A DNA stretch of 64,000 nucleotides from Balamuthia mandrillaris (lineage: Eukaryota): NCBI GenBank assembly GCA_031835245.2, contig JAVKOQ020000054.1:1-64000 (forward strand). The letters run 5' to 3'. Below, piece by piece: positions 235-50,305 of this stretch. The translations under genes and the position numbers were made by a program. How positions within the stretch are numbered: position 1 is the stretch's first letter; the number at the start of each line of letters is the position of its first letter. The notes beneath the pieces were generated by a model. It ran no database searches. It was not told the DNA's origin and worked only from the letters and a program-made list of their open reading frames with translations.

Positions 235-286
235 TTTTTTTTGACTTACATAAGTGATTCAAATCCCCTCTTGCGCTACGCACATC

Positions 287-3200
287 ATGGAAGCCACAGC
301 CGCTCTCGACACCCTCCGTGAACAGCTTCGCAAGGCACAACAGGAGTACCTCCACATGCTCCAACAATCTTTTCAACTTGAGCTCGACATCCCCAGCTGT
401 CCCGAGACTGAACGCGTCGCCAAAGAAGAAGAACAGCGCAAGTTAGACGAAGTCGCAGAACACACTAGAAAGGCCATGGAACGGTTACAACAACGTATAG
501 ACAGCTTTGCTATTTTCCTCGCATCCACCTCGGCCACACTAGGCAATTCTTCCACATGCAACACTTCCGCTGCCGCTGTTTCTCCTCCCTCGCCCGTTCC
601 ACAGATCTCTCCCATACAGTCACCTCGTTCGAGTTCACCCTCTCCCGTTGACGTTTCCGTCAACAACACAACTGCTTCCAACAGCACACACGTTGCCTCT
701 GTCCCAGAAACACAGAACAACACAACTACTCCTTCCCCTCCTACTCAGAAGAAAATGCCTCGCCTTCCCCCCGGACTACCTAAGTTCGACGTCAGCAAGC
801 GCCAGGACCCCGCTCTTCACACCATGGAACTGGAGTATCACCTCAACGCCTACAACTACCCTGAGGATAGATGGACGCAAGCCCTCATCACCACCCTTGT
901 TGGAGACGGACGTCTTTGGGCCATTAGCGCTCTACGAGACCAACCATGGAACGTCGCCCGAGACCTCTTCCATCGGCACTACCACCTTCCAGACATCGAG
1001 GCCACAACGATTGAGGCCGTCACGTCGTTTCGACAGAAGCCTGGCGAAAGCGTTCATCAACTCATCGATCGGTATTCTGTACTCTGTAATCGTCTTCCTG
1101 ACACCTTCTACGACTACCTCAAAGCCTTCTTCTTTGGACGAGCCCTTCTTCCCCACATCAAGTCGAAGTACAAGCAACAGACTCTTCGCAACAAGCCACA
1201 AGACGTCATCGCTGCTTTCGAGCTCGCAGTCCTCATAGAAGCAGAGTTTCCACAACCTTCTTCGAAAGATAAAGGTCACAGCAAATCACCTCAAAGGCAA
1301 TCACAGTTACCCCACACTATCGGTGCTGTTTGCGCACACTGCAAAACACGCAACCACACGGAAGATCAGTGCCAAAAAAAGGCCCGCAAGCTACAACGGC
1401 AGTCTTCTCCAGCTACGTCTGCTACACCAGCCTTATCTTCTGCTCCCACAACACGCAACCCCACGTCAACACTGCCGCAACAAACACGCGCGCAACTACC
1501 AGCACGCCAGTCCTCTCCCAGCTCACGTTCCCTCAACTCCATGTCTTCTACGCAACAACAGAGCAACACACCCGCTCCTGCCGCTGAGCAGCAAGACTCT
1601 ATCGGAGATGAAGAGGAGTACGACGAGTTCTATGAGTCACAACGGGCTCTCAACTCTATCACCGTCACTGACGATATGCCTGGACCCAACGACCCTATCT
1701 GTGCCCCGATGACCATCAACGGCCGTCGAGTCACCGCTGTCATAGATTCTGGCGCCAGCCACTCCTTTATGGACCCTTCCATTGTTGACTTAGTTCGTGC
1801 CAAAACCAAGCAAGCCAACTACATGGTCAAACTCGGACACCGTGAAACCACCGCTACATGTGCCGCCGAAACGGAGCCACTCGCTATTGGCTTCGGCGAA
1901 TGCTGTTTCCATCACATGTTCTCCGTGTTGCCTCAACCAGATGGTCAATCGATCATCCTGGGCCGCGACTTCATGCGCAAGTCCGGCATGGGCATTACAG
2001 ACATCCCAATCGACTACCCTGAGGAACCACTACCTCGCTCCAAGGACCACGACATCACCCGACGCCAACATCAACGTTTGGTGAAAGCTGTCAAGGAACA
2101 CATCCGCAAGCGTATTCTCGAAGCCATCGAGAAATACCTCCAGGAGAATGAGGCTCTACCGACAGGACCTTCCTGTACCCTCCCCGAAGCGGTTCTCCAT
2201 CTGGACACTGGAGACCACCCTCCTGTCTTTCGCCACCAATACCCCATCCCACACCATTTAATGCTCGTTATCGATCTGCAAGTGGCGGAATGGCTGCGTA
2301 CCGGCGTCATCGTGCTCGCCCCACCCGACAGTCCCTGGAACTCTCCTCTCACCGTCGTACCCAAGAAGGACGCTGACGGCAACGTCACCCAGTGGCGTGT
2401 CTGCATCGATCCGCGCCTTCTGAACAAGCTCCTTTTGGACCTCACATACCCAATCCCTACTATCCGCAGCATCATCTCCAAAGTGCAAGGCTTTTTCATC
2501 GCCTCCGCCCTCGACCTTATCTGGTCTTACACACAATGCCCCATTGCTCCTGAAGACTGCGTCAAAACTACATTCACATGGAACGGTCGTCGTTACATGT
2601 TCGTCGCCGCCATTTTTGGCATCAAAATCGTTGCACAGCACTTCCAGCGCCTCATGGACGTTGTCACTGCCGCTATTGCCGAGTTCACTTCCCATTACAT
2701 CGATGATCTCGCTGTCGTTTCCCAAAGTGTGGAAGAACATATCGAGCACCTTATCCGCGTTATCCTCACTCTCACCGCCGCGGGACTCCGTATCCGTCGG
2801 GAGAAGTGTCAGTTCGGGTACAAACGCCTCTGCATCCTCGGTTTTATCATCGACTGCAGCAACATCCTTCCCGACCAACGCAAGCTCTCCACCTTCGCAC
2901 TTCTCGAAGTACCTTCCACCAGCAAACAAATGCAATCCTTCCTTGGCTTTGCAGGCTACCTTCGCGACTTCATTCCCATGTTCGCCCAACTCGTTCGGCC
3001 CCTTGACACCCTCCGGTACATCAAGGATGTCCGTCCCCATTGGAACCAAGACTGCCAGGACGCCTTTGACGCCCTCACACACATCTTATCCAACCCACCT
3101 GTGCTCTCACTCTATGACCCATCCTTACCTCTTTTGGTTGGCACCGATGCCTCCCAATTCGGTGTTGGCGCTGTCCTTTACCAGATCGGACCCAACAACA

Positions 3201-4937
3201 AGCACTGGTACATCGCGTTCGTGAGCAAGGCTCTCAACCCTGCCCAACGCAACTATCCTGCCACCAAACGAGAGATGCTCGTCATCCTCTTCGCCGTCCG
3301 CTCCTTCAGCGATTGGCTCTATGGCAACAAGTTCATGATCTTTTCTGATCACAAGGCTTTGTCCTACCTCTTCACTTCTAACAGTAAAAAACTACACCCT
3401 CAACTATTGGGCTCTCCTCATCTCCGAGTACAACTTCGAGATCGTCCACCGCCCTGGCGTTCACATGATCCTTGAGGACTGTCTCTCTCGGCTGTACCCG
3501 CGCTCCTTCTGGGACAACGGTGGTCTTACACCTCCCTCCATCCCTCTTGACGCCCCTCGCTTGGCTCAGCACAAACCCCGCGACCTCAAGGCTCTCGCCT
3601 TGGTTGACAACTCCCCATCCACAGCCAAATCCGCTCTTAACAGGCACATCAAGGGCAGACTCAGCAAACAACTCCCTTCCACCTCCAAACGGAAACACCT
3701 CCTGCAGCTGTTCCACACAGAAGGACATCACGGAGCAGAAACCTTGTTCGTCAAGATCTGGAATGAAGGCTATTACTGGCCTACTCTTCGTGCTGACTGT
3801 TCCCGCACTTGCCTACAATGCAATGACTGCCTTAAGCACAACGTCACCAAACACGGCTTTCATTCCCTCAAAACCATCCACGCCACTTACCCCTTCGATC
3901 ACGTCGCCATCGATCTGTTTGGCCCACTTCCCACTTCTTCCAAAGGCTTCAACTACGTTCTGGTCACCACAGACATCGCTACCGGTTCCACTTCCCTCCG
4001 CCCAATCCACGCCAAGACTGCTAAAGACGTGGCCCGCACCCTGTATCAAGTCGTCTCTGATTTCGGTCTCCCTAAGATCCTTCAGTCAGACAACGGCACT
4101 GAGTTCGTCAACGCGATCATCAAAGCTCTCAAGACACTCTCTGGCTTTGAGCACCGGTTCATCTTGGCCTATCATCCTCGAGCCAACGGAGCTGCAGAAA
4201 GCCATGTCAAGCTGGCCCGCAACACCCTTAACAAGCTCATTAACAGTGATTGGTCTCACTGGCACACCTTTCTTCCTGCTGCCCAATACGCAATCAACCA
4301 ACGCGTCACCCATCGTCACAAGTCTTCCCCTTTCCAACTGTTCTTTGGTCGCCCAGCTACCACTCCACAAGACTATTCTTCTTCCTCCTCCCAGCTTCCT
4401 ACCGAAACTCTCCTCTTGGAGAATGCCAAGCAAATGCATGATATTGTCTACCCGGCATCAGCATCTTCTACCCGGAAGCACAGCTCCAACATCAAGGCTC
4501 AACATGATTCCTCTAAGCCACTCCGCGAATTTTCCACTGGTTCCAAAGTCATGCTACGCAAGCCTCCCAGGTCTCCCAAGTCTCTTCCTGAGTACTCTGG
4601 CCCCTACACAGTTATCCGCCGCAATCGTGGTGGTGCATATCTCCTCCAGGACAGCACCAGTGTTACCCTCCCAGACAAATTCAGCCCCAACCAGCTGAAG
4701 CTCGTTGCCCCCCCAGAGGACTCGACTACTAATGAACTCCTGCCAGATGAGTACGAAATAGATGAAATCCTTGATCACAAAGGCCCAGCCAATAAGCGTG
4801 AATACTTTGTTCACTGGAAAGGCTACCCACATTCTGACAACCAATGGATCCCTGCTAAAGATGTTCATGCTCCCAAACTCGTCAAACGTTATTGGGATCT
4901 CCTCAAACAATCTTCTTCACCTTCCACTTCTTCTTAA
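287..4937 (+). CDS. Gag-Pol polyprotein, single ORF broken by a +1 frameshift at ~3375-3392
   Basis: Gag zinc knuckle CAHCKTRNHTEDQC; protease AVIDSGASHSF; RT YIDD; RNase H TDAS...SDHKAL continuing in another frame as YWALLISEYNFEIVHRPG; integrase HHCC, D-D-E (IDLFG, SDNGTEF, NGAAES) and GPY; chromodomain EYEIDEILDHK...YFVHWKGY. Confidence 0.95.
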
Positions 4938-15094: not shown

Positions 15095-16261
15095 TTACAA
15101 GTGATATGATGGCGAGACAAGACGGCCACCCTGAATGATAATATCTTCAGGGCGGAGTGGCTTCCCTTGGAAGAAGTTGGTGAGGATGTCCTTTACGCCA
15201 GCCGCGTAGCGAGCCTGTGCGTCAAGCGTGGTCCCTGAGTAGTGAGGCGTGAGGGCATGGCGGGGCATCCTGCGCCAGGGATGATTTGGAGGAGCAGGTT
15301 GAGGATACCACACATCTCCTGCATAGCCTGCCAGGTGTCCGCTTTGTAACGCATTGGCCAGAGCTTCCGTGTCCACGATCTTGCCTCGAGCCGTGTTCAC
15401 AAGGTAACACCCTTTCTTCATGGATGAGAGGAGGCGATGATCAAACAGACGGTCCGTGCGCGAAGTGAGAGGGGTGTTGATGGTCACGATGTCGCACTGG
15501 CTGACCAACGACTCCAACTCCACATAGGTCACTCCAAGTGCTCTCTCTTGCTCAGGAGAGAGCCGCTGGTAGTCATGGTAGAGCATCTTGACCCCAAAAG
15601 GTTGCAGCCTCTGGCATATGCGCTGTCCTATCCTACCACAACCGACTGTGCCCACCACTTTACCTTCCAGATCGAAGGCCTCACGGGCGATATCGGCTAC
15701 CTTCCACTCCCCGTTTACCACTTGCTGGTAGGCTGGCACAAAGTTGCGCACCAGGATGAGGATCTGCATGACCACATGCTCGGCCACGCTGGAGACATTG
15801 CTGCCAGTGACCTCAGCAACCGTTATCCCCGCCTGCCGCGCCGCCTCCAGGTCTACATGGTCTGAGCCCACCCCTGCAGTGACCACCATCTTCAAGTTGG
15901 GTCCCTTGGCTATCCTCTCCTTGGTCACGTAGGCCGGATGGAAGGGCGTCGTGATAAGCACGTCGGTGGTGGGTAGCTCTTTGTCCAACGCTTGCTCCTT
16001 GTCAGTGAGAACCTTGTACTCATGCCCTTGGCTCTGAAGCATCTCTCTGAGGCCCAGTCCGTTCTCTGCGCAGCCAAGCAGGCGAGGCTCTCTTCTGGCG
16101 GCCTCACCACCTGGATAGAGCACGGCTACTATCTTGTCCCTTCTTGTTGGAGTACTGCTGAACAAACGGGAGGAGGAGGGAGCCGTTGCAGGTCTCCAAG
16201 CCTTGAAGCTGTTGCATCCAGCGGCCACGGTGGCCCCCAGTGTCGCCCTATTCCCAAACAT
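15095..16261 (-). CDS. fdh: NAD-dependent formate dehydrogenase with probable mitochondrial presequence
   Basis: ITTPFHPAY, AGVGSDHVDL, GCGRIG, NTARG, GDVWYPQPAP, TPHYSGTTLDAQARYA. Confidence 0.96.
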   Translation of the reverse strand: MFGNRATLGATVAAGCNSFKAWRPATAPSSSRLFSSTPTRRDKIVAVLYPGGEAARREPRLLGCAENGLGLREMLQSQGHEYKVLTDKEQALDKELPTTDVLITTPFHPAYVTKERIAKGPNLKMVVTAGVGSDHVDLEAARQAGITVAEVTGSNVSSVAEHVVMQILILVRNFVPAYQQVVNGEWKVADIAREAFDLEGKVVGTVGCGRIGQRICQRLQPFGVKMLYHDYQRLSPEQERALGVTYVELESLVSQCDIVTINTPLTSRTDRLFDHRLLSSMKKGCYLVNTARGKIVDTEALANALQSGHLAGYAGDVWYPQPAPPNHPWRRMPRHALTPHYSGTTLDAQARYAAGVKDILTNFFQGKPLRPEDIIIQGGRLVSPSYHL

Positions 16262-16685
16262 GATGAGGAGGGTAAGAGATGTGTTTGTTCCAGTTGACCA
16301 AAGAAAGAAGCAGTGGCGAGAGGCAAAGAATGAAGTATTCCTTTTGGTGCGACCAAGGGCGTGTAACGAAGACTAGATGGAAACTTGAGGATGGGTTTCT
16401 TTTATATGACACCAATGGGGTTGGGCTTTGGTTGGTGGAACTCGCAGAAAACCGGCCTTAAAAGGGGGTTTGGTGCTAAAAACAGAGGCCACCACCTGAA
16501 TTATTGTTGCTTTCGTGTAGATTTTCGACTCCACTGGAGGGTGAGACCCAGAGTGAAAGGAGAGAGGAATGGGGAAAGAGAAAGAGAAGCATTGTAGCAC
16601 AACCAGAGTTAACAAATAGCACAACGGGAAATGTGCAAAAAATAATATCTATAAAATAATAAGCAGCAGAAGTATGTACAAGCAT

Positions 16686-20158: not shown

Positions 20159-21870
20159 TTATACACGAGACATGCCAAGAGCAGTAGGGATAATGGCAGT
20201 AGCAAAGCCAATGCAGCTGTAGGTCACAAACTTGGTCGGAATGTCGATGTCGTAACGTTGATAGGCGGTTTTGGGGATCTGCTTTTTGCTCCTATTCGTC
20301 GTCTTTGATGACGATGATAAAGACGACCGTCGAGAAGCCACTCCACCATCAAAAGCTATTGTTTCCTGTTCCCTCTTCTCCTTTTCTTTCATTTCCTCCT
20401 GTTCTCTCTTCTCCTCTGCTGATTTCCTTCTTTCTTCCTCTTCCCGTTGTCTTGTTTCTCTTTGTTTTGCGTTGTCCACTTCCCGTTCTTCTTCTTCGTC
20501 TACTTCCGCAAGCAACCGCTCCAAGTCCGCTTTGCTCAGCACGAGGCTACGCATGAGCCAGAGCATGATGTGCTTCACCCCCATGCGCACTGCAGAGAGG
20601 ATGAGATAGCCCACCAGGCATCGCACCACCAACAAGAGTGAGGGCGGGAGAGCCTCCAACCCTGCTCCACTTCCATTTACATCATCCATTTCCATGATTT
20701 GTTGCTGCATCTGTTCGTTTTGAGTCTCAGTCAACCACCCGCCAAAGAGGCTGCCATAGCTAACGCCGACGATGATGGTAGTGTCTCCAAAACTGCCTGA
20801 CCAGACTTTGGTTCGCGGGTAGAGGATCAGCAACACAAAAGCCACGATGGGTAGCACGATGGGTACGTTGGAGCTTTGGGCCAGCCACTCCTCCAGCTGG
20901 TCGTCAAAGGAGAGGAAGGCGGAAGTTAGTACGCCAGAGAGAATGAGCCCCGCGATGATATCCTCCACGAAATGCGCGCCCATGTAAAGTCTGCTGAGAC
21001 TAACCATCGCCGTCCATAGAGTGGCAAGAGTGAGGCCTGAAAATATTGATAAAGAATCAGAAAGTGCTTTTTTTTTTCATTTTTGCCAATGTGTCATTTT
21101 CGCACACTTCGTACTTCCTTTCTTTTTCTTGTTTTTCTTTCAAGGAGGGATAAGGAGATAGGGAGAAGAGAGAGAGTGTGTGTTGTGTGAAGAGACAAAA
21201 GGGACTAACCAATGGGAAGAGCGTAGTCAAAGCCCCAGTCTTGGTACGTAATGGCCACCAAGTAAAAAGATAAGGAAGCGGAACCCATGGTATGGGTCGA
21301 CGGAAGTCCATACTCGTTTTCATATTTGTTGACTTGATAAGAAAATTTTAGAACAGGCGGAGACGGAGGCCTTGGAAGCTTCAGTAGGTCCTGCGTAATG
21401 TATTGTCGTTTAGATGATGAGCAAGTTGAGTTGACAACGTATTTGGAAGAGAATACCTTCAGAGCTTGGCCCACATAGTAAACGAAAATCCAAAGCAGCA
21501 TCAACCTGATAAAGAGAGCGTGTTCATACAAAGCTTCATTCAACAAAAGCAAGTGAAGAATATATAACGCACTTTCGCCAATGTCCGCTTGTCCAGAGGA
21601 AAAAAGGGAGAAACAAGATGTAAAACAACTCCTCGCCCATCGTCGTTCCAAACACAAACAAAATGTGAAACCACATATTTGTCGGTTGTGCTAAGAGAGT
21701 CTCACTATCGCTTTGGTCTGGTGTCGGTTTTATGGTTTGTGTTTTGTTGTTATCTTGTTGTTTTGTTTGTCGAGGGATCAACCCACACCATCTTTGGAAC
21801 GTTGCTACTCTGCTTGCTCCTGTCATCACCTGCCAAGTTGAAAAAATGAGGATAAAGAGAAGGGAGTTGC

Positions 21871-21916
<46 letters not shown>

Positions 21917-22386
21917 AGGAAGAACGGAAGAACATAAACGAGAAGCAACAAAAAGCGAGCAAGCGAGAATAGAACAGAGAAAGGAGAGAACCTTGTGGAG
22001 CAAATATGGCCGGACATAGGTATCCAGAACCCGAGCAAATAGCGAGGTTGGATAGGCAGCCACCAACAGAAGCAAATGGATGGCTCCTTTTTTGACGGTT
22101 GGTGTTCATGTGGAGGTTATTTTATTTAATGTCAGCTTTTAGTTGACCCAAAAAAAAAAGGTAACGAAAATAAAACAAACAAACAAAAGGAGGTTGAGAA
22201 GGAGGCATCCTAAAGGATCGAAACGGAATGGAACAAAAAAAGAAAGCGGAAACTTGGGAGAACATTTTTTCGTACTAAGAAAAGGGGTGATGGTGGTTGG
22301 AGGAAGATGTGCATACCTTTCAACGAGAGGACGTCATGTTTCTGCAGAGTAACAGGGTCCACGAACTGCGTCTTCTGTTGCGCCAT
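20159..22386 (-). CDS. Sphingosine-1-phosphate phosphatase-like PAP2 protein, multi-exon
   Basis: K|DLLKLPRP, YGLPSTH, SRLYMGAH, GEELFY; first exon ATG at 22386 inferred from splice phase. Confidence 0.9.
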
Positions 22387-37484: not shown

Positions 37485-38085
37485 ACTCTCCTTCTCGTCT
37501 CTTCTCATCTCTTCATAGTTCTCTTCCTCGTTCTCTTCTCTTCTTCATTCTCCATCGATCTTTTTCTTTTTTTTCTCTTATTTATCGTTACTATCGACCA
37601 AAAAGCAATATTTATCGTATCCTAATTGATATATTTGACGTTGTTTGTTTTGTGATTGGCTGATGTCGATCTTGTCGACTTAATTAGGAATTACTATTTG
37701 TCGACTTTAATAAATTATGGCCGATCAACTCCGACAAAAAATAAAAAGAAAAGAAAGAAAAGCTCACGCGACGGGAGAGAAAGCTGAGTGGTCGATCTTT
37801 TAACGTTTCGGGAAAGATCGGCCCTACTGAACGCACAGTGCTCCAACCTAAAAGCTTTTTCCCCCCCCCGTGCTTCTTTCTTTCTTTCGTTCATTTTTAT
37901 TTTTGAGGTTTGTCATTTTTGTCAATAATCTAGGGGCTGCTTGTCATCTCCTGGCTCGAAAGCAAAACGGAGAAGAGCGAGAGAGAAGCTCTGCTTCGTT
38001 TTGATGCTTTAGGTTCTTTTTTTGTAACAAAAAAGAAAGAAACGAACGGAAGAAACAGCGGGACTAAAGAGAAGAGAACACCATA

Positions 38086-41000
38086 ATGGAAGACGAATTA
38101 GAAGACGAAGAGTTCTTTCAAGAGGAAGAGGACGAATATGAAGACGAGGAAGAAAACTCGGAAGAGGAGGACGGTGATGGCGAAGGAGGAGGCCTTACCA
38201 ACGGTGGCGAGGTGGACCATGACCACGAAGAGGACGAAGAAACGGACGAGTTTGACTATTTGCAAGTCTTTGCCAACACCATACACACTCTGCGTCCGTT
38301 CTTTCTCTTTCTCTCTTCTTGCGCTCCTCTTCTGCTGCTCTGCCTTTGCTAGCTTCTCTCCCTCACCCTGCTTAGCCAGTGCCTCTCTTACCTGCGTCTC
38401 TCTCGTTTTCATACAAATAAACAGGAAAAGAAAGCGAGAAGGTCGGAGGCAATGGACAGAGCTTGCCTTTTTTGGACGACCTGGAAGCCGTCTACAAATG
38501 TTTCCAGGACCGGGAGGCCAACTTCAAAGTGGCCGTCGAGATCGGCCAGATGCTCGTCGAGAAGAACAAACAGCTGATGGAGGGAGAGAAGCCATGGCAG
38601 GAGAAAGTGATGGCACAACAGGAGCAGCTCGACACGATCAGCAAGGCCAAGGAGGAGGCCAACAGGAAGTTGGAGGAGTTGGAGCTGAAAAGGCAGTTGC
38701 TCAAGGCCAAGAACAAGTCCTCAGAGGAAACGAGGGTGAAGCTGTTGGAGTACGTCAAGGAAATGGAGGAAGAGGTGCAGCGGTGCAAGAAAGAAGTGAC
38801 GGAGAGCTTAGAGTTCAAGAGAGAGACGCGCATTCTTAGTCAACAGTTGGAAAAGCTGAAAGAGGAGAGCGAAGCTCTGAAGGAACAAAAGGAGACGCTG
38901 CAAAAACAGAACAGTCATCTGAAGAACGAGCTGGAAGAATTGCGTGAGAGCGAGGAGCAGCTGAGCAAAGCCAAAGGACTGCTAGAGGCCCGAGTGAAGG
39001 AGTTGAACGAGGAGCTAGCCTCCATGCTACACCTCAAGGAAATCCACGCAAAGCTCAAGAAGAAGGCCGCTCGCCTTGCCAAAGAGAACGCAGAGCTTGT
39101 GAACTACCGCGAGGAGAACCGCGAGCTGAAGCAGCTCATCCTCTCTTTGGCCAAAGAGAAGGATATGATGGCCAAGCAACGTCTGCGTGACCAAACCATC
39201 TACGAGGAGGCCTTGGAGACCATTCGTAGCTTGAGAGAGATCATCACTGGCAGACAGATATTCCTGAAAAACCACGGGCTCGAGGGAGATATCTCCATTC
39301 AAGACTTTCACAAGCTCTCCATCTTTGAGCAGATGGAGAATGGCGTGCTTAAGATACTCAACAACAAAAACCTCAGCAAGGATGACATGGAAAGAGCTCT
39401 GGAACAAGAAATCAAAAGGACAGTGCGACAATACTTGCGCAATGGTGGACAGATGGACTTGCCTCCACGTGCGTTGAGCGAGGAGCTGACACAGAACGAC
39501 GAAGAGGAGAAAGCAGCAAAGAACAAAGATGAGGAAGACCAAGTTCAAGCGAAAGAACAGCGACAAGAACCAGAGTCAACTGAAAAGGCAAAAGAGAGCG
39601 AGGAAGAGGAAGAAAAAGAAAAAGAAGACAAAGAGTTTGTGGAGGAATTGGAGAGACAGATCAAGCTGGAGATGGAGGAGAGAGGCAAAGAGTTGGCCGC
39701 ACAAACAGGAGATGCTTTGCGGCACAGCGGTAACTTTGCCAATGTTGGAGATTGGGTGTCTCATGCGCAGGCAAACATCGCCAAGTGGAAAGCCGAGAAG
39801 GAGAAGCACAAGGAAGAAAGAGAAGAAGTGGAGTTGGAGATCACTAAAATTCGTATCCGAAGTACGTCTTCTCCTCAGCTGAACAAAGGGAAGAAACAGA
39901 AGAATAAGGGCAAGGAGAAGGATAATGAACAGGGAGATGAAGCGAAAGAAGTAGAAGAAGAAGAAGAAGCAGAAGAAGAAGAACTACTAGAACATCCACC
40001 AACGCCACGACCGACAAGATCCGCCTCGTCTGATTCGATGATGCTTTTGGAAGGAAGCGCAATAGATCTCACTAACTTGAGGGTGGAAGACAGTTTGACA
40101 ATAGACGAAGAAGACCCTCGGCGCTCGTTATCGGGTGATGAAGCTCGGAAAGCTAAAGGTAAAGAAAGAGAAGGAGAGAAACAGAAAAGGAGGGCAAAAC
40201 AAACAACGGAAGAGAACATGAGATTGATGGAACGTGATGACGACTACGACTATGACTTAGATGCAACCAACAACAAAGGCATCGAAGCTATCGTTCACGA
40301 CATTCATCGGAAGAAGGAGTTGGAGAAAGGTCGAAGAAGTCGATATCTCCTTCGGCGGCGGTACGGTACGGCACCTCCCGGCATGTTCTCTCAAGGCCAC
40401 AAACGCAGCGCTAGCACTCCCAACTTGTTAGCCTTCAACCCCAAAGGCCGTTCATCTTTTTCATCTTCTTCTGCTCGTCAACAGCAGCACCCATATGAAC
40501 AAACACACACTGCTATTCATCGACAGACTCATATGTACACTTCCACAGAAGAATCGGCACAACTTTGTGGCAACACTTCGTTCTTGCAACCGATTGAGCT
40601 TGGAGCGAGCTCTGAAGCGTTGTTACTCAGAGGGGAAGACATCATCATCGGCGTTCATGATGATGAGACGCAAGATCATGTACCGACGGATGCAGCAACA
40701 GCCGCTTCGTTGATGATGGAAGGAGAGATGAGCATCGGGGAGGAAGTTATGGACGCTATACAGAAGGAAGAGGAAGAAAAGGCCAAACAGCAGCGCAAAC
40801 TGAAACGAAAACAACGCAAGCAACGCATCGCAGAGTTGGAAGCAAAGGAAACAGAGTTGGAGGAACGAATAAAACAAGAGCAGACGGAAAAGGAAAGACT
40901 CAAACGAGAACTGGAAGAGGCTTTAGAAGAAGCGAGAGCGGAAGTGAATCGCTGCGAAACTCGGTTGGTGGAAGAAGAGAGAGCTCATGAGGATCGTCTT

Positions 41001-44000
41001 TCACGTCTGAGAGAGGTGATGGAGGATCGGGTGGCAAAGTTAGAAGCCAGCGATTATGCACGCAAGCTCAAAGTGACAAAGCTAAAGACCAAAGTTGGAG
41101 AGCTTGAAGAGGAGTTGAAAAAAGCGCGTCAAGACTTGGGCGCTCGCATGGAAGAAGCCAAGCAACGGTACCAAGAGTTGGAAAGAAATAAAACCGAGCA
41201 AGTGGAGCGTTTACAGCGTGACTTGGATGAGAAGGAGACGTTGTTGCAGGAAACGAGGCAACAATTGCAACGAACACAGCGCGAAGTTGAAGAAGTAAAC
41301 GCATCACTGAGCAAAGAGAAAGAACGAAGCAGAGAGTTGGCACAAACTTTGGCTGACAGAGAACGAGACTTTCGTAAGCAGCTTTCTCAAAGGGAGGAGC
41401 AGGAGAAGAAACGCTTGGAAGCGGGAGAAGCAGCTTTGGAGAGCTCTCGAGACGAGTTGGAAAGAGAAAGAACCCGCTCGAAGGAGCTGCACTCCAGTTT
41501 GGCACAAAGCGAGGAAGCACTTTCGCAACAACGAACTTTAGTGGAGGCTTTGCAGCAACAACTCTCAGAGCAGCAACAGCAAATCCAACAAAGGGAGGAG
41601 CAACTCAATTCCAACAAAGAGACAACAGAGGAAAGCTCTCGTTTGTTGGAAGCTCAACAAAAGGAAAAGCTCATGCTAGAAGAAGAGCTGAAGGAGGAGA
41701 GAGCTCGGTTGCAACATCTAGAACAACTGTTGGCGGAGGAGCGAGCGGCCAAAGATGGTTTGGTTGCTGCCCTTCAAAAACAGTTGGACGAAGAAAGAGA
41801 ACTTACTGCTGAGATGAGAAGCAGAAGAGAGGAAGAGCACCACAAAGAAATGGAGGAAGAGAGACTGAAATGGAAGAAAACGGCAGAAGAAGAGAAGCAA
41901 AAAATGACAGAAATACACCAGAAGGAGATGGAAGAAGAGAGACAAACGAAAGAAGAAGCAATAAAAGCAGAAGAAGTGGAGCACAACAAGCGAAAAGCGC
42001 TAGAATCGGCGCTCGAAGCAGAGACGACAATACTTCGAGACACGGAGAACACTCTTTGTGAGGAACGAGAACGCAGGAAGCAGTTAGAGCAAGAGCTGCT
42101 GCTGCTTCGTCAGCAACTCGTCTCTCAAAAGGAACAACACGAGGAGGCCATTCGCTCAGCGGCGCTTCGAAGCGGATCTGCAGAAGATGCCCTGAATGAG
42201 GAGCGACGAAAGAGGGAAGAAGAAGCGAACGGTTTTGTAGAAAGAATGGACGCGGTGAAGAAAGAGATGGAAGAACGGTTGAGAAAAGAGGATGAAGCAA
42301 GGAAAGCGGCGGAAGGAAGTGTTGTTGAAATGAAACAACGGCTTGAAGCGAAGGAGAAAGAGTGGAACGAGGAGAGAGAACGAGCGGAGAGAGAAGCGCA
42401 AGAGAAACTGGAGGAAGAAAGACGAACGAACCAAACTTTGAAGGAAGCATTACAAAGTGCACAACAAGAAAGCGAATTGCGGATCAAAGAAGAGAAAGAA
42501 AAGGAAGAACAGTTGCGGCTGGAAGTAGAGGAAGCGAAACGAAAGAACGAGCAACTGACAGAAGAACTGACTACAGAGAGACAGCGGAGAGAGAAAGCAG
42601 AAGAAAACGCTGAACGTGAGCGTACAGAGGCAGAAGCGCGAGCGAAAGAGGCGGAAGCTTTGCAGCAGAAGATGAAAAAATCAAGAGAACAATTGGAAAA
42701 GAACCGCAGCGCTTTGCAGAGCGAAAAAGACCAGCATGAAGCAGAGAGAAAGAAGCTGGAAGCGGAGAAAGCCGCTTTCGCGGGAGAGAAACAAAAGATT
42801 CTGGAGAAAGAGAAAACATTGAAGCACTCCGAAAAACGGAGGAAGAAGGAGGAAAGAAAGTTAAAAGCGAGAATCGCGAAACACGAAGCAACGGAGAAAG
42901 AGTTCTACGAGCGGCAAAAGGACTCGGAGCTGAAGATGAGCGAAGCATGGGAAAAGTTTTGGGAGGAGCAAGAGAAGTACCAGGAGAAAGCGCTGAAAGA
43001 GAACAGAGAGGTCGCGCAACTGCAGGAACAGCTCTCTCGCAGTGCCGAACAAGTGCTTCAACTGCAGCAGTTGAAGCAGAGCAATGAGGAGGAGATCCAA
43101 CGGTTGCAAAAGGAAGTGGCCCGACTGCAGCAGGAGCTCAAAGAACAAGGCCGTGCCTCTCGCTTGGAGAGAGAGACGAGCATGAGGGCTTTGAAGCAGA
43201 CCAAAGAGGAGCTGGAGAGATTGGAGCAGGAAAGACAAGAGCTGGAAGCGGCCAAGCAGAGAATTGCTAAGATGGAACAGGAGCAACAGAAGGAAAGAGA
43301 GGAGTGGGAGAAGAAAGCGGAGAAAGAAAGAGAGCAACAAAAAAGAGAACAAGAGAAAGCGGAGCAAGAGAGAGCGAAACGAGAACGAGAAGAACGCGAA
43401 CGAGCGGAACGCGAAAAAGCTGCGCGCGAACGAGCTGAAGCTGAAGCTGCCGCAAACAAAAAGAAAGAAGAAAACGAAAAGAAGAAGAAGAAGAAAAAGA
43501 AGAAGAGCCTCAACAACGCTGTGCAGAACAAGTCCTCGCAGCTGCTGAAAGAGTTTGTCAAAGCCGCCAACGAAGAGCTCGAAATAGCAATGGAGCTTGC
43601 ACGAGAGGCAGGTCCCGTTGTGGAACTCATGCCAGAGGATACCACCGACCGACAACAAAGAAAAGGAGCCGCTCGCAAAGCCGTTTCGAACCTTCACTCG
43701 CTCTCCACAAAAGTAAAAGAATGCATCGAAGCCGCGTTGGAGGATCCTTCGGATATCCACCTGCAGCACAAGCTCCTCACCACCCAGAAGAATTTGGGAT
43801 TGGCCATTCAAAAGGTGGTCTTCCTGACGACGAACAGCGCGGATGCTTCCTCGAGCAAAGAGCTGGAAGAGGCTATGAAACAGATGGCCAGTGCCACTGG
43901 CTCCGACTTTGATGGAGAAGAGGAGGAGCAAGAACAAGGCGAAGGAGGAGGAAGCGCGGGCGGTGGTGCAGCTCCCCGGAAGAAACGTTTGGAACGGACG

Positions 44001-44748
44001 CTATCGACGTTGATCATGGGTCCGGCTTCTTTAACATCTAGCGGCACTTTCTCCACCCCTGCCATGGCCTCTGGTCGACATGGTGGCGGGGCCAGCGGCA
44101 ATGCTGCGGAACAAGGAGAAGGAGCACCGAATCTGGAGGGTATGACAGTGCTGATGGCAGCTCAGGAAACTATTGAACAACTGGAAGAACACTTTTTGTT
44201 GGACGAGGACGATGCTGTTGTTACCGGGCAAGGCGGCAGTGGTCGTGCTAGAAGCGCCTCTTTGAAACGAAGCCCAGGGCGTGACTCGGACTTACTACGA
44301 GTGGCGAAGCTCATCCTTGAAATGGTCAAAAAGTTTGCCCATCTGCTTCGTCAAGTGGCCTCCCAAACCGATGACACTCAGTTCCGGAAAGAACTCTTTG
44401 AATACGCAAGTACGTTTCTCTTCATCGTTCTCTTCGTCATTCTCTTCTCCTCGTCGTTCTCTTCTCTCTCCCTCTCCCTCCTTTTGTTTCTTTGCCATAA
44501 CTTGAAATACAATAACAGGGATATTGCCAGATCGTGCACTGCAACTGAAGATTATAGCAGCTGTAAAGACATCAAACGAGGACAGCAGCACGAACCAGAT
44601 AAGCCGGGCGGCACAAGGCCTTCGCAACTCTATTCAGGAGGTGGTGGACGTGCTGTGCGCAGCTTCCCTCAAGAAGAGGTTGGCAGCCACCATCAACCAA
44701 GTCTCCGCCTTGAAGAATGTGATGAGCGCATGGAAAAAAGCTCTTTGA
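38086..44748 (+). CDS. Giant coiled-coil protein with CC1-box-like N-terminus and vinculin/alpha-catenin-like tail; introns ~38294-38424 and 44410-44518
   Basis: 2143-aa ORF with AVEIGQMLVEKNKQL; spliced tail VASQTDDTQFRKEL...LPDRALQLKIIAAVK...AQGLRNSIQEVV...AASLK. Confidence 0.8.
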
Positions 44749-44832
44749 AACTGTTCCCATCGTTTTCGCTTCCTCCCTTTCTCTTCTTTCTCCTCTTTAT
44801 TCTCTTGTCGTTATTCATTCGCTTTTCGTTTA

Positions 44833-45637
44833 TCACAAGCTTGACACAAAATGTGAAGAAGATCGGAACGATGAGCAACTGGAAAAAGGGGTGAGAGAAG
44901 GAGGAACAAGCGGCAAAGCGTTGGACCAAGCGAAGCAAGCACCTAAAGTGTTGCTCGTGCTTCCCTCCATTCCCCCATCCAACAGAGCATAGGCAACGTC
45001 GCATGAGGATTCGTTCTCTTCGTACAATGGAGCAATCTCGATGAACAAAGGTCCTTCTGGGACCGCTTCATCCTCCTTCAACCACACGACCACCCGAATG
45101 GGAGAGTCGGGCCACCGATACGCAACACAATTGTTGTTGTGTTTGGCGTTGGTAGAGGTGAGATGTTCTTCTTGACCTCCAAGAAGTGTGCTCCAAAGCT
45201 TTCGTGCGTCGGGCAACATCCAAGCCACTGTGTGCAACGCCTTGACTGCTATTCCGTGTTTTGGTCTCTCTGCTGAATAGTCTATCTGCAGACACGATAA
45301 AAAAACTCAGTATCAGTGCACAGAGAAAGAGAAAAGAGAGAATCATTGAAAGAGAGGAGCAGAGAAGAAGATGAAAGAAGAGAGATGAGAGAGAACACCT
45401 TATGCTTCTTAAAGTATGCCAAAGGAACGTAACCATAGTCAAGTTCAGGGTGAGACTCTGCGAGTTGAATGACAACGCCAAGACCTCTCTGTTGAGGATA
45501 CAGGAATGCTTCTTTCCAACTTGGAATGTCGGTTCTTACCCCTACCACCTTTCGGGTTAAATGAACGACAACGTGAGCAAACAGAAATGTGAAGCAGAAG
45601 ACACAGAAGAACAAGAACGAAATAGATCGAAACGACA

Positions 45638-46786: not shown

Positions 46787-47020
46787 CGGAATGCCCCTGT
46801 TTTTTTGGTGGTGCGAACAGCTGAACTAGAGACACGTCAAGGAGTCTTGAGGAAATGAAAGGAGAAACCAAAGAGCACGACCCAAGATGAGCACTTTCAA
46901 TGAAGGTTATTCGAGAAGAGAGAAAAGCGAGCCAGAGAAGAGAGCACGAAGCAAGAAGGGGAGCAGGGCTAATAAGTAACTTAATAACCGACAAAGAAGA
47001 AGAAGAAGAAGAAAGGGCAG

Positions 47021-48719
47021 ATGGCATCAGGGTCAGGCGGTGAGGAAGAAGAGTTTTCAGCAGAGGAGGCAGAGGACAGCAAAACCCTTTCTCCCTTCCT
47101 TCAAGCCGTTACCACCTCCTGCGACCTCTCCAGCAACAGCTTGCCTAAGTTGCCGAGCACATTTGGGCTGCTGACCGCCCTCACCCACTGCGACCTCTCC
47201 TGCAACAAGTTAACGGCCTTGCCCGCCGAGTTTGGCCAGCTCACCGCTCTCACCCATTGCTGCCTCTGGGGTAACCGGTTGAAAGTCTTGCCGGGAGAGT
47301 TTGGGCAGCTGACGGCCCTCACCCGCTGCGACCTCCACGAGAACAAACTGAAGAGCTTGCCCACCGAGTTTGGTCGGCTGACCGCCCTCACCCACCTCAA
47401 CCTCAGCAAAAACTTCGGCCTGAAAGCTTTGCCCTCTGAGTTTGGCCAGCTGACGGCCCTCACCCGTTGCAACCTCTCCAGCAACAAGTTGAGGCGTTTG
47501 CCAAGGGAGTTTGGCCGGCTGACCGCCCTCACCCGTTGCGACCTCTCCCACAACGGCTTGAGGGCCTTGCCACGGGAGTTTGGCCAGCTCTCTTCCTTGC
47601 ACACCCTCGCCCTGGCCTCCAACAATTTGACGGCCTTGCCAGGAGAGCTTGGCCGGCTGACCGCCCTCACCCGTTGCGACCTCAACGAAAACTACAAGTT
47701 TGAGGGCTTTGCCAAAGGAGTTTGGCCAGCTCTCTTCCTTGCACACTCTCGTCCTGGCCTCCAACAAGCTGACGGCCTTGCCGAGAGAATTCGGTCAGCT
47801 CACCTCCCTCACGGATTGCTATCTCTGCTGCACAGATGCTTCCCTCTACCACCGGGAGCTCAATCGCTTGGCTGCACTGCCATCCTCCGCCTTTCAGCTT
47901 CTCCCTTTGTTTAACTCTGACATCTGTTCTCAGCCCTGTGCGAAGAAGGAGACCAAGCAGACCAAGCAGAGAAGAGCAACAAAGGGCAACAGAGGAAATG
48001 GGAGTGTGAAAAGTTTGTGGGATTTGGCTGGAGAGGCGGTGCTGAGAAACCAGCTTTTGCCGACAGGCATGTTGGCCCCTGTTCCTCAATTGCCTTTCAC
48101 TTGGCCTGCTTCTTCTCTGCGCCTAGAACCCGAAAATAAAGTTGAAGACGAAGAAGAAGATTATGAAGACGAAGAAGAAGAAGAAGAAGAAGAAGAAGAA
48201 GAACAAGAAGAAGAAGAAGAAGAAGAAGAAGAACAAGAACAAGAACAAGAACAAGAACAAGAAGAACAAGAAGAACAAGAAGAGGATGAAGAACAAGAAC
48301 AAGAAGTGTACGAAGCAAGCGCTGAAGACGAATTTGAAGAAATAGAAGTAATAGAAGTCGAAGAGGAAAAAGAAGAAGAAGAAGAAGAAGAAGAAGAAGA
48401 AGAAGAACGAGAAGAACAAGAAGGAGAAGGAGAAGAACAGCAACAACAGCAGCAGCAAGTGAAAGCAAAAGACGAAGCAAGTGTGGAGTGGATGGTACTG
48501 CCAGAGGAAGTGACGGAAAGACTGGAAAGGTTGCAGCAACGATGCGATGTGTGTGAATGTCTGTTTTTGGAGACAACGAGAGAAGAGGAGGAAGAAGGAA
48601 GAAGAGGGAGGCTTGTGCGAAGATATTGGGACAAGGAAAGAGAAGTGTGGTGGGAGTTGTTGTGCTGCAGCCAAAGGTGCTTGACTTCGCCTCTTCCTGG
48701 CTCTTTGCTTGAACTTTGA
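47021..48719 (+). CDS. LRR protein copy 1 (~11 LRRs, BC-box-like motif, Cys-rich tail); 1-nt frameshift at ~47700
   Basis: 23-aa LRRs; SLWDLAGEAVL; poly-Glu; RCDVCEC...LLCCSQRCL. AAGTTTGAGG here versus AAGTTGAGG in a sister repeat. Confidence 0.85.
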
Positions 48720-48976
48720 AAGGAATAATTTTCAACATTACGCCCTTTCTTTGAATGGAGAAGAGACCACTCGAAACAAAAGTCTTTTAAAGAAGAAAAC
48801 AAAGAGTACAACCCAAGATTGGTGCTTTGCAAGCCCAACGCCAAGCGTTCTGCTTTTCCTCTCGGCAGACACCAGAAGCAAATGATCCTGGAAGCGAGCA
48901 CGAAGCAAGAAGGGGAACAGGGCTAATTAATAACTTATTGACATAGAAGAAGAACAAGAAGAAGAAGAAAGGGCAG

Positions 48977-50305
48977 ATGGCATCAGGGTCAGGCGGTGAG
49001 GAAGAAGAGTTTTCAGCAGAGGAGGCGGAGGACAGCAAAACCCTTCGCTCCTTCCTCCGAGCCGTTGCCACCTCCTGCGACCTCTCCGCCAGCGAAGAAG
49101 AATTGACCAAGTTGCCGAGCACATTTGGGCAGCTGACCGCCCTCACCGACCTCGACCTCAACGAATGGGACCTGGAAGCCTTGCCCCCAGAAGTTGGGCA
49201 GCTGACGGCCCTCACCCGCTGCGACCTCGGCGGGAACCTATTGAAGAGGTTGCCTGCCGAGTTTGGCCGGCTGACCGCCCTCACCCACCTCGCCCTTAGC
49301 AGCAACCAGCTGAGGAGCTTGCCCCCCGAGTTTGGCCTTCTGTCCGCTCTTTCCTTCTGTGACCTCTCCTACAACAAGCTGACCAGCTTGCCTCCTTCCT
49401 TCGGCCAGCTGACCGCTCTCACGGAGTGCAACCTCTACTACAACAGCTTGAGGGCCTTGCCACGGGAGTTTGGCCAGCTCTCTTCCTTGCACACCCTCGT
49501 CCTGGCCTCCAACAAGCTGAGGGCCTTGCCGAGAGAATTCGGTCAGCTCACCTCCCTCACGGATTGCTATCTCTGCCGCACGGACGTTTCCCTCTACCAC
49601 CGGGAGCCCAATCGCTTGGCTGCGCTGCCCTCCTCCGCCTTTCAGCTTCTCCCTTTGTTTCGCTCCAACCTCCGCTATCAGCCCTGTGCGAAGAAGCAGG
49701 CCAAGCAGAGAGGAGCAACAAAGGGCAACAGGGGAAATGGGAGCGTGAAACGTTTGTGGCATTTGGCTGGAGAGGCGGTGCTGAGAAACCAGCTTTTGCC
49801 GACAGGCATGTTGGCCCCTGTTCCCGACTTGCCCTTCACTTGGCCTGCTTCTTCTCTGCAGGAGAAGGACCAAATAGAACAAGATGAAGATGGAGACGAA
49901 GAAGAAGAAGAAGAAGAAGAAGAAGAAGAAGAAGAAGAAGAAGAAGAAGAAGAAGAAGAAGAAGAAGAAGAAGAAGAAGGAGAAGAACAACAGCAGCAAC
50001 AGCAGCAAGTGGAAGCAAAAGACGAAGCAAATGTGGAGGGGATGGTGCTGCCGGAGGAAGTGAAGGAAAGACTGGAAAGGTTGCAACAACGATGCGACGT
50101 GTGTGAACACCTGTTTTTGGAAGCGGCCCCTGCGCAAGAAGAAATGGAAGAGGAAGCGGTGGAGGAAGAAGGAAGAGGGAGGCTTGTGCGAAGGTATTGG
50201 GACAAGGGAAGAAAAGTGTGGTGGGAGTTGTTGTGTTGCAGCCAAAGGTGCTTGACCAAGCCCCTTCCTGGCTCTTTGCTTGAACGTGGGCAGGAACAGA
50301 AGTAG
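48977..50305 (+). CDS. LRR protein copy 2 (~8 LRRs), intronless
   Basis: Tandem paralogue of copy 1, sharing upstream sequence, N-terminus and C-terminus. Confidence 0.9.
   Translation: MASGSGGEEEEFSAEEAEDSKTLRSFLRAVATSCDLSASEEELTKLPSTFGQLTALTDLDLNEWDLEALPPEVGQLTALTRCDLGGNLLKRLPAEFGRLTALTHLALSSNQLRSLPPEFGLLSALSFCDLSYNKLTSLPPSFGQLTALTECNLYYNSLRALPREFGQLSSLHTLVLASNKLRALPREFGQLTSLTDCYLCRTDVSLYHREPNRLAALPSSAFQLLPLFRSNLRYQPCAKKQAKQRGATKGNRGNGSVKRLWHLAGEAVLRNQLLPTGMLAPVPDLPFTWPASSLQEKDQIEQDEDGDEEEEEEEEEEEEEEEEEEEEEEEEEEEGEEQQQQQQQVEAKDEANVEGMVLPEEVKERLERLQQRCDVCEHLFLEAAPAQEEMEEEAVEEEGRGRLVRRYWDKGRKVWWELLCCSQRCLTKPLPGSLLERGQEQK

What the first reader, a model, noticed from the sequence alone, without database searches (positions are those of the whole stretch)
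38463..44748. Candidate dynein activating adaptor fused to a vinculin-type actin-binding tail
Seen: AVEIGQMLVEKNKQL (~38532) resembles the CC1 box of HAP1/TRAK/BICDR (AAxIGQxLxxxN). It is followed by ~260 aa of mostly coiled coil, then LSIFEQM (~39315), similar to the Spindly motif at the expected spacing. The C-terminus matches the vinculin/alpha-catenin tail (QLKI..VK, AQ.L..S..E.V...AAS.K). Inference: one protein coupling dynein-dynactin to F-actin; I do not recognise this architecture.
Basis: partly seen in the sequence, partly recalled or inferred. Interest (0 to 1): 0.75.

Follow-up and report, generated by a model that had tools for sequence, protein, structure and literature searches.

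The report
Amoeba dynein adaptor with vinculin tail
An amoeba-type gene, spliced as RNA reads show, encodes a 2,140-residue protein that begins with the motor-docking segment of the animal TRAK/HAP1 transport adaptors and ends in a predicted vinculin-like tail, so it likely ties the microtubule motor dynein to actin-rich structures, although neither binding is tested and its dynein-docking motif departs from the consensus.

Summary
The gene is real: three exons (38086-44748), both introns seen in RNA, 2,140 aa, and 24 of 32 listed coding differences are silent. The N-terminus is homologous to TRAK/HAP1. The 50-70 aa around AVEIG is enough for the Pfam HAP1_N hit (E 3e-6, below cut-off), and a profile of relatives hits TRAK2 first. 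The relatives form an amoebozoan family (Gocevia, Cavostelium, a Balamuthia paralog, environmental contigs); 7 of 9 read canonical AAxxG. Most with upstream sequence also carry a helix resembling TRAK's dynein-regulatory helix. The C-terminus is a vinculin/talin-type bundle, a linker and a vinculin-tail-like domain; each exon half matches weakly and in order. None of four relative lineages with a readable C-terminus has this tail, and three share a different end domain, so the tail looks like a domain swap. Best reading (0.4): a self-clamped dynein adaptor anchored to actin. No binding was tested. New variant of a known kind.

The parts
38086..38293 (+). Exon 1: ATG, acidic leader (aa 1-55) and conserved helix
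   Evidence: Splice model; X3 contig covers 38060-38293 joined to 38425
38251..38292 (+). Conserved amphipathic helix (aa 56-69, LxxF at 59/62), likely equivalent to TRAK's dynein-regulatory helix
   Evidence: Same pattern in P0001, P0002, P0009 and L006/L008/L009/L010, looser in L001-L004; TRAK helix described in PMC13545989; equivalence inferred
38294..38424 (+). Intron 1, 131 nt, GT..AG
   Evidence: 4 reads in X17 and 1 contig in X3
38425..44409 (+). Exon 2, 5,985 nt, one open frame from the CC1 box to tail helix 3
   Evidence: RNA contigs tile it at depth 26-35
38472..38576 (+). HAP1_N-like CC1-box segment (aa 86-120); core A106-V107-E-I-G110 at 38532-38546
   Evidence: Pfam HAP1_N E 2.8e-6; ungapped alignment to TRAK2; family profile to TRAK2 E 9.1e-5; Atlas hits CDR2, BICDR, TRAK
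38532..39248 (+). CC1 coiled coil (about aa 106-344), Pro126 early; its end motif is shared with relatives
   Evidence: Heptad scan; end-of-coil alignment
39276..39293 (+). GLEGDI (aa 354-359): alternative Spindly-position candidate, Asp for Glu
   Evidence: Aligned by MAFFT to SLDAEL of P0010, 19 versus 20 aa after the coil-end Ile; not recovered by pairwise BLAST
39315..39335 (+).
   Evidence: fails the JxxE-phi consensus
39477..40808 (+). Acidic and Ser/Pro-rich linker, predicted mostly disordered; holds a 58-nt GAA repeat (39939-39996) that no listed contig bridges
   Evidence: Composition and heptad scan
40809..43496 (+). About 900-aa coiled-coil stalk ending in an E/R/K-rich stretch
   Evidence: only generic coil families in Pfam
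43506..43895 (+). Three- to four-helix bundle of vinculin/talin type (aa 1764-1893)
   Evidence: AlphaFold2 single-sequence model, pLDDT 72-87 over residues 11-110; best structural matches are vinculin, Z 12.1, tied with designed bundles
44142..44745 (+). Vinculin/alpha-catenin-tail-like domain split by intron 2, plus a final helix
   Evidence: Pfam Vinculin E 0.0019; alpha-catenin ABD; vinculin tail helix 5; Atlas talin/vinculin clusters 0.83
44410..44518 (+). Intron 2, 109 nt, GT..AG
   Evidence: 5 reads in X16, 1 in X17, X3 contig; X10 contig
44519..44748 (+). Exon 3 with TGA stop

Best explanation
The gene encodes one 2,140-aa rod protein with a TRAK/HAP1-homologous N-terminus and a predicted vinculin-type tail, and it likely works as a self-clamped dimeric dynein adaptor whose tail would anchor the motor to F-actin at the cortex, adhesions or actin-coated vesicles. 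Shown: gene structure, expression, homology of the box segment, the amoebozoan family, and a different C-terminus in the relatives. Inferred steps: (1) the exon-1 helix folds onto the CC1 box and blocks it, as in TRAK; (2) on release, the dynein light intermediate chain helix binds the A106/G110 groove, probably more weakly because of V107; (3) the coil of about 240 aa lies along dynactin, ending in a degenerate pointed-end motif; (4) a stalk of about 900 aa holds the tail far from the motor; (5) the tail binds F-actin, so dynein pulls on microtubules from an actin anchor or hauls actin-coated cargo inward.
For: One ORF and two RNA-confirmed introns. 24 of 32 listed coding differences are silent against 21% expected. 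The HAP1_N hit comes from the box alone. The alignment to TRAK2 is ungapped and keeps the cavity-forming Ala and Gly, which PMC7655957 names as the key d and a positions. Atlas neighbours include the CC1-box adaptors CDR2, BICDR and TRAK at 0.90-0.93. 7 of 9 relatives covering the box read AAxxG, and 5 of 11 hits pass Pfam's HAP1_N cut-off. SLDAEL in P0010 sits 254 aa after the Gly, and SLSDEL follows the coil in L001/L003/L005. The upstream helix is conserved. The two tail halves match vinculin-family sequence in order, and the Atlas lists talin/vinculin-type families for all ten of its best hits that carry a family.
Against: V107 replaces the second Ala. The double AA-to-VV change abolishes LIC1 binding in Spindly and BICD2, and A40V is a hypomorph in fly BicD. 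Fly Milton, which lacks these alanines, moved cargo only outward. Neither Spindly candidate meets JxxE-phi, and there is no QxxH/Y near the box, although that site is reported as variable and not conserved in unicellular dynein. This protein scores below the HAP1_N cut-off. Every tail hit is below cut-off or not significant, and the Atlas score of 0.83 is a lead only. The tail half of the model had pLDDT mostly under 50. No second organism with the fusion was found. No listed contig spans the whole gene.
Confidence: 0.4

Rival explanations
1. It is a working dynein adaptor, but the vinculin-type bundles bind a protein or lipid cargo (amphipathic-helix partners, paxillin-type motifs, acidic membranes) rather than F-actin.
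For: The same fold occurs in talin rod, p130Cas and catenin M domains. Pfam Talin_IBS2B scores as well as Vinculin on some pieces. Vinculin tail structures are also solved with paxillin, raver1 and PIP2. The tail sits where relatives carry their own end domain.
Against: The end of exon 2 matches the alpha-catenin actin-binding domain and exon 3 matches vinculin-tail helix 5, not the head bundles. An Ile/Val pair lies in the register of vinculin I997/V1001 (register recalled; their role in actin binding).
Confidence: 0.27
2. This paralog has lost dynein activation, like fly Milton, and serves as a kinesin adaptor or a long actin-anchored scaffold; the box is a leftover from the family.
For: V107, Pro126, a 4-residue gap against relatives and non-consensus Spindly candidates. 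The Milton precedent. TRAK's coil binds kinesin-1 directly.
Against: The box segment is the part that still aligns best with relatives (56-62% identity over about 45 aa). Cavostelium P0010 also has AVxxG together with a consensus Spindly motif, so Val is a natural variant. The regulatory-type helix is kept.
Confidence: 0.25
3. Two genes were joined by an assembly error at the GAA repeat (39939-39996), so the fusion does not exist.
For: No listed contig in the contig runs laid bridges 39939-39996, which the tool skips as a repeat. No other organism shows the fusion.
Against: The frame is continuous across the repeat. RNA contig depth is similar on both sides (31.5, 26.2, 34.7, 34.6). Contigs in X1 and X6 run into the repeat from both sides, and no loose end or joint is listed there, though those tables are cut. 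The repeat is only 58 nt.
Confidence: 0.04

Closest known systems
TRAK1/TRAK2 and HAP1 (Pfam HAP1_N, PF04849)
   Same: Homologous CC1-box segment; an upstream LxxF helix at similar distance (TRAK 92/95 per PMC13545989; -43/-40 from the Gly in Gocevia, -51/-48 here); a coil of about 240 aa followed by a Spindly-like position in relatives.
   Different: Second Ala is Val; no QxxH; consensus Spindly motif not met in this copy; 2,140 aa with a 900-aa stalk and a vinculin-type tail. No TRAK C-terminal (Milton) family was hit.
CDR2/CDR2L, BICDR1/2, BICD2, Spindly (other CC1-box dynein adaptors)
   Same: Nearest Atlas clusters are CDR2 and BICDR; same N-terminal motor module and C-terminal cargo module logic.
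   Different: Their cargo ends (for CDR2 a kinectin-binding helix) are unrelated; none is known to me to end in a vinculin-type domain.
Vinculin and alpha-catenin C-terminal half (last head or M bundle, linker, actin-binding tail; PF01044), including Dictyostelium VinB
   Same: Bundle, flexible linker, tail in the same order.
   Different: No further head bundles; matches are weak; the tail's first helices are unresolved and separated by long low-complexity loops.
Amoebozoan CC1-box family found here (P0001, P0002, P0010, L001-L010)
   Same: Box segment, upstream helix, coil-end motif.
   Different: P0010, L001 and L010 share a C-terminal domain of no Pfam family that this protein lacks; none has the vinculin-type tail.
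Huntingtin-HAP1-HIP1 assembly and NuMA/Num1 cortical dynein anchors (recalled, no call)
   Same: They link dynein to actin-binding or cortical anchors.
   Different: They do it with several proteins or unrelated domains; here it would be one chain. Pfam I_LWEQ was not hit by either tail half.

Membership tests
CC1-box dynein activating adaptors (TRAK/HAP1/BICD/Spindly/CDR2) | Homology of the box segment to HAP1_N | tested here: met
   E 2.8e-6 as sole family, though 27.2 bits is under the 33.9 cut-off; 5 of 11 search hits pass the cut-off; profile to TRAK2 E 9.1e-5
CC1-box dynein activating adaptors (TRAK/HAP1/BICD/Spindly/CDR2) | Small Ala and Gly at the core d and a positions forming the LIC cavity | tested here: met
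   A106 and G110 align without gaps to TRAK2 A129 and G133; role from PMC7655957
CC1-box dynein activating adaptors (TRAK/HAP1/BICD/Spindly/CDR2) | Literal AAxxG consensus | tested here: not met
   AVEIG here, with no difference at the box listed for X1, X3 or X6; met in 7 of 9 relatives that cover the box
CC1-box dynein activating adaptors (TRAK/HAP1/BICD/Spindly/CDR2) | Coiled coil of about 250 aa after the box | tested here: met
   Heptad signal over about aa 106-344 by a simple script; no dimer model could be run
CC1-box dynein activating adaptors (TRAK/HAP1/BICD/Spindly/CDR2) | HBS1 (QxxH/Y plus acidic patch about 30 aa after the box) | tested here: inconclusive
   First QxxH/Y is at G+121, but most adaptors lack the literal motif and the dynein site is not conserved in unicellular species
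CC1-box dynein activating adaptors (TRAK/HAP1/BICD/Spindly/CDR2) | Spindly motif JxxE-phi just after the coil break | tested here: inconclusive
   LEGDI has Asp and IFEQM has Gln at the Glu position; literal matches lie at G+285 and G+310 but the motif is common here; literal in P0010 and L001-type relatives
CC1-box dynein activating adaptors (TRAK/HAP1/BICD/Spindly/CDR2) | Binds dynein LIC and activates dynein-dynactin motility | not testable with these tools
   No LIC sequence of this organism was available; needs biochemistry
Vinculin/alpha-catenin family (PF01044) | Tail-domain sequence homology | tested here: inconclusive
   Only the two exon halves were scored against libraries, each alone: E 0.0019 (17.1 bits, cut-off 38.1), E 1.2, E 5.2, collinear
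Vinculin/alpha-catenin family (PF01044) | Five-helix tail fold | tested here: inconclusive
   Model lacked exon 3 and was low-confidence there; the upstream bundle matches vinculin at Z 12.1, tied with generic bundles
Vinculin/alpha-catenin family (PF01044) | Multi-bundle head (D1-D4) | tested here: not met
   Only one bundle precedes the tail; the rest is coiled coil or linker
Vinculin/alpha-catenin family (PF01044) | F-actin binding | not testable with these tools
   Needs co-sedimentation

The most novel reading that the evidence does not exclude
A single polypeptide that activates dynein-dynactin at one end and grips F-actin through a vinculin-type tail at the other, arisen by domain swap inside an undescribed amoebozoan TRAK-like family that already had the CC1 box, the Spindly motif and the fold-back regulatory helix, which would date the TRAK-type dynein switch to the common ancestor of animals and amoebae.
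Probability: 0.35. Interest if true: 0.85.

Novelty: new variant of a known kind. Interest (0 to 1): 0.68.

Why it matters
Two things. First, in the papers I searched, CC1-box adaptors are treated with animal examples only, and Hook is the family followed into fungi. A TRAK-like family in Discosea and Variosea, with the regulatory helix described for TRAK in 2026, would make that switch much older than animals. It also gives natural variants (AA, AV, AI) for testing what the box tolerates. This part stands on firm sequence evidence. Second, if the tail binds actin, this is a one-chain link between dynein and the actin cortex, a job that animals give to multi-protein anchors (recalled). That offers a direct way to test how amoebae pull on microtubules from the cortex or pass actin-coated vesicles to microtubules. 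This part is untested and so far rests on one gene.

Tried and rejected
No whole genome is held for this window, so paralogs and the organism's dynein LIC, dynactin and kinesin could not be checked.

Word-seeded protein searches found nothing at their thresholds for the N-terminus or the tail (about 8,000 candidates scored each, lengths limited). A metagenome scan with the window's own N-terminus gave 285 pattern matches and 0 relatives.

P0011 (Paenibacillus) was dropped as coiled-coil noise. P0008 starts after the box Gly and was left out of the box counts. PDB search with the whole 317-aa N-terminus gave only generic coils. P0002 alone gave no adaptor hit. Its monomer model shows helix-turn-helix-long helix but no fold match, so it does not test fold-back. 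Foldseek on the C-terminal model had no match at E 0.001 or below. Exon 3 alone hit no Pfam family. Pairwise BLAST did not recover the LEGDI-LDAEL alignment.

No RNA holder was listed by the index; RNA evidence comes from laid runs. X18 gave 15 reads, all only partly on the stretch. Earlier scan notes held nothing on this sequence or genome.

Rejected: LSIFEQM as a clear Spindly motif; HIP1/Sla2 identity (the HIP1 coil hit, E 6e-4, is one of several generic coil hits, and I_LWEQ is not hit); reading the unspliced frame to 44894 as the main product.
Full report
GENE. The region holds a three-exon gene on the + strand: 38086-38293, 38425-44409 and 44519-44748, giving 2,140 aa. Both introns are GT..AG and are seen spliced. 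Intron 1 appears in 4 reads of X17 and a contig of X3; intron 2 in 5 reads of X16, 1 read of X17 and contigs of X3 and X10 (8 of the 18 listed runs were laid). X3 contigs tile 38060-39595, 39997-40666, 40668-42606 and 42672-44676 at depth 26-35. Exon 2 is one open frame from the CC1 box to helix 3 of the tail. Of 32 coding differences that I took from the listed rows are silent, against 21% expected at random (one search hid 171 more rows, and repeat-like sites were left out). The listed indels inside coding sequence are of 3 nt. One gap remains: no listed contig bridges the 58-nt GAA repeat at 39939-39996, which the tool skips. The closest full-length relative is a Balamuthia mandrillaris protein at 32% identity, so an amoebozoan is inferred.

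N-TERMINUS. The 50-aa and 70-aa pieces around AVEIG each hit one Pfam family, HAP1_N (E 2.9e-5 and 2.8e-6). The following 274 aa do not hit it. The score is under the curated cut-off. The piece aligns without gaps to TRAK2 109-161 (E 2.2), placing A106 and G110 on A129 and G133. PMC7655957 (passages) and PMC9481740 (passages) state that this Ala and Gly sit in the coil core and form the cavity for the dynein LIC helix. The Atlas neighbours of the first 317 aa are CDR2, BICDR and TRAK clusters at 0.90-0.93. CDR2 is a CC1-box dynein adaptor (10.1101/2024.11.06.622207, passages).

A FAMILY IN AMOEBOZOA. The full-library search gave 11 proteins at E 0.001 or below. One is coiled-coil noise (P0011). 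The named others are a B. mandrillaris protein (P0001), Gocevia fonbrunei (P0002) and Cavostelium apophysatum (P0010); seven are unnamed fragments. Nine cover the box: 7 read AAxxG, P0010 reads AVxxG as here, and P0001 reads AIxxG. Five of the 11 pass Pfam's HAP1_N cut-off, two fall just short, and P0001, P0008 and P0010 do not hit it at E 0.05. P0004 and P0007 are near-identical, so these are not five independent cases. A profile of ten family rows hits TRAK2 first in the PDB (E 9.1e-5) and BICDR1 weakly (E 4.5). The profile also fetched 10 loci out of 269 pattern matches, which by their translations fall into two gene types.

Three features are shared. (a) An upstream amphipathic helix: aa 57-69 here, in P0001, P0002, P0009 and L006/L008/L009/L010, and in looser form in L001-L004, but not by this pattern in P0010 (the pattern was written after seeing these sequences). 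Its LxxF lies 43/40 aa before the Gly in Gocevia and 51/48 here. PMC13545989 (passages) describes a TRAK helix, aa 85-106, whose residues 92 and 95 mimic the LIC helix and block the box; equivalence is my inference. (b) A coil-end motif about 226-234 aa after the Gly (286 in P0001). (c) A Spindly-type motif after it in some members: SLDAEL at G+254 in P0010, the only match to the pattern in G+200 to 330, and SLSDEL in L001/L003/L005. I saw no clear motif in P0001 or the L010 type.

WHAT IS WORN IN THIS COPY. The second Ala is Val. The double AA-to-VV change abolishes LIC1 binding in Spindly and BICD2 (PMC5379953, passages). Fly BicD A40V is a hypomorph (PMC2639643, passages); from memory it is the second position. 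Fly Milton lacks the two alanines and moved cargo only outward. The updated Spindly consensus is JxxE-phi (10.64898/2026.04.25.720804, passages). GLEGDI, which MAFFT aligns to P0010's SLDAEL and which lies at the same distance from the coil end, has Asp; BLAST did not recover that alignment. A pattern fitted to SIFEQM is rare in shuffles (0.1% of the segment), but it was fitted after the fact. There is no QxxH/Y near the box, but the same preprint reports that most adaptors lack it and that the dynein site is not conserved in unicellular species. There is also a Pro at 126 and a 4-residue gap against relatives.

C-TERMINUS. After a linker of about 440 aa and a coiled-coil stalk of about 900 aa, aa 1764-1893 model as a three- to four-helix bundle. 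Its best matches are a sponge vinculin and the vinculin tail at Z 12.1 (rmsd 3.0 and 2.4, 102 aligned), tied with designed bundles, so this shows fold type only. The last domain is split by intron 2 and was scored against libraries only in halves. The exon-2 half hits Pfam Vinculin positions 726-768 of 852 (E 0.0019) and Talin_IBS2B (E 0.021), and aligns to the alpha-catenin actin-binding domain (E 1.2, 1 of 8 hits). Exon 3 aligns to the last helix of the vinculin tail (E 5.2, 1 of 2 hits). Each hit is weak; their value is that they fall in order. Atlas neighbours are talin/vinculin clusters at 0.81-0.83, one of them mostly Discosea among members with a record; this is a lead only. The Ile and Val of QLKIIAAVK lie, by my recollection of the vinculin sequence, in the register of I997 and V1001, whose mutation lowers actin binding (PMC5384775, passages).

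THE FUSION IS SPECIFIC. Neither bundle nor tail matches any of the 10 loci (tblastn, E 1 or below), nor P0001 or P0010 beyond chance. P0010, L001 and L010 share another C-terminal domain (E 2e-14 and 2e-4 in a 7-sequence database) with no convincing Pfam family, and this protein lacks it. So 0 of 4 lineages with a readable C-terminus carry the tail; the other relatives are fragments and say nothing. A swap of the cargo end in this lineage is the simplest reading. Vinculin-like proteins are known in Dictyostelium (PMC10983970, passages), so a donor pool exists.

MECHANISM. I commit to a self-clamped dimeric dynein adaptor anchored to actin by its tail (0.4). The rivals are a dynein adaptor with non-actin cargo (0.27), a Milton-like copy that no longer activates dynein (0.25), and misassembly (0.04). 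By standard helix rise the first coil is about 35 nm and the stalk about 130 nm (inference). It works like a CC1-box adaptor by homology. It should not be filed as a proven activating adaptor, since the literal AAxxG is not met. It is not a vinculin, since the head is missing.

NOVELTY. 'CC1 box' + 'Spindly motif' + 'Dictyostelium' found 0 papers. The 20 listed of 43 papers for Spindly/BICD/TRAK/dynein had no occurrence of 'Amoebozoa'. 'Dynein adaptor', 'vinculin', 'actin-binding domain' and 'CC1 box' (3 of 4 terms) found one unrelated review (listing only). (listings; PMC4100572 passages) showed no such protein. The library lacks most subscription journals. I read no supplements: the 100-sequence CC1-box alignment of PMC7655957 and fig. 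S12 of PMC13545989 could hold non-animal members, and I did not check Pfam's own species list for HAP1_N. Verdict: new variant of a known kind, interest 0.68. The family finding is firm; the dynein-to-actin link is a testable inference from one gene.

Noticed in passing
L001:9130-9609, L010:8150-8231, P0010 aa 585-705: The amoebozoan CC1-box relatives share a C-terminal helical domain of about 125 aa with no convincing Pfam family; it is likely the family's ancestral cargo-binding end.
   Followed up: partly
window 44410-44894 (+): The exon-2 frame runs through intron 2 without a stop and would give a hydrophobic, membrane-anchor-like stretch in place of tail helices 4-5. Probably a by-product of the CT-rich intron; reads there appear to come from repeats elsewhere.
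   Followed up: partly
window 254-4937 (+): LTR-type retrotransposon with protease, reverse transcriptase, RNase H, integrase and chromodomain (likely Ty3/gypsy), in two overlapping frames.
   Followed up: partly
window 35436-37484 (+) and 20159-22105 (-): A sphingosine/ceramide-kinase-like gene (DAGK_cat, CERK_C) lies directly upstream of the adaptor gene, and a PAP2 lipid phosphatase lies about 15 kb away; possibly opposing sphingolipid enzymes.
   Followed up: partly
window 46947-50305 (+): Tandem near-duplicate leucine-rich-repeat genes with acidic tracts and a shared Cys-rich end; the first copy appears to change frame near 47661-47914.
   Followed up: no
window 15095-16372 (-): Intronless D-2-hydroxyacid dehydrogenase that looks like NAD-dependent formate dehydrogenase with a mitochondrial-type leader (recalled resemblance).
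   Followed up: partly
window 44748-45210: A spliced X10 contig runs on 460 nt past the stop codon, into frames of the opposite strand: a long 3' UTR or overlap with a convergent gene.
   Followed up: no
L006:2449-2479, L007-L010 equivalent: In this gene type a very short intron appears to interrupt the CC1 box at its Gly codon, which hides the motif from gene callers and profile searches.
   Followed up: no
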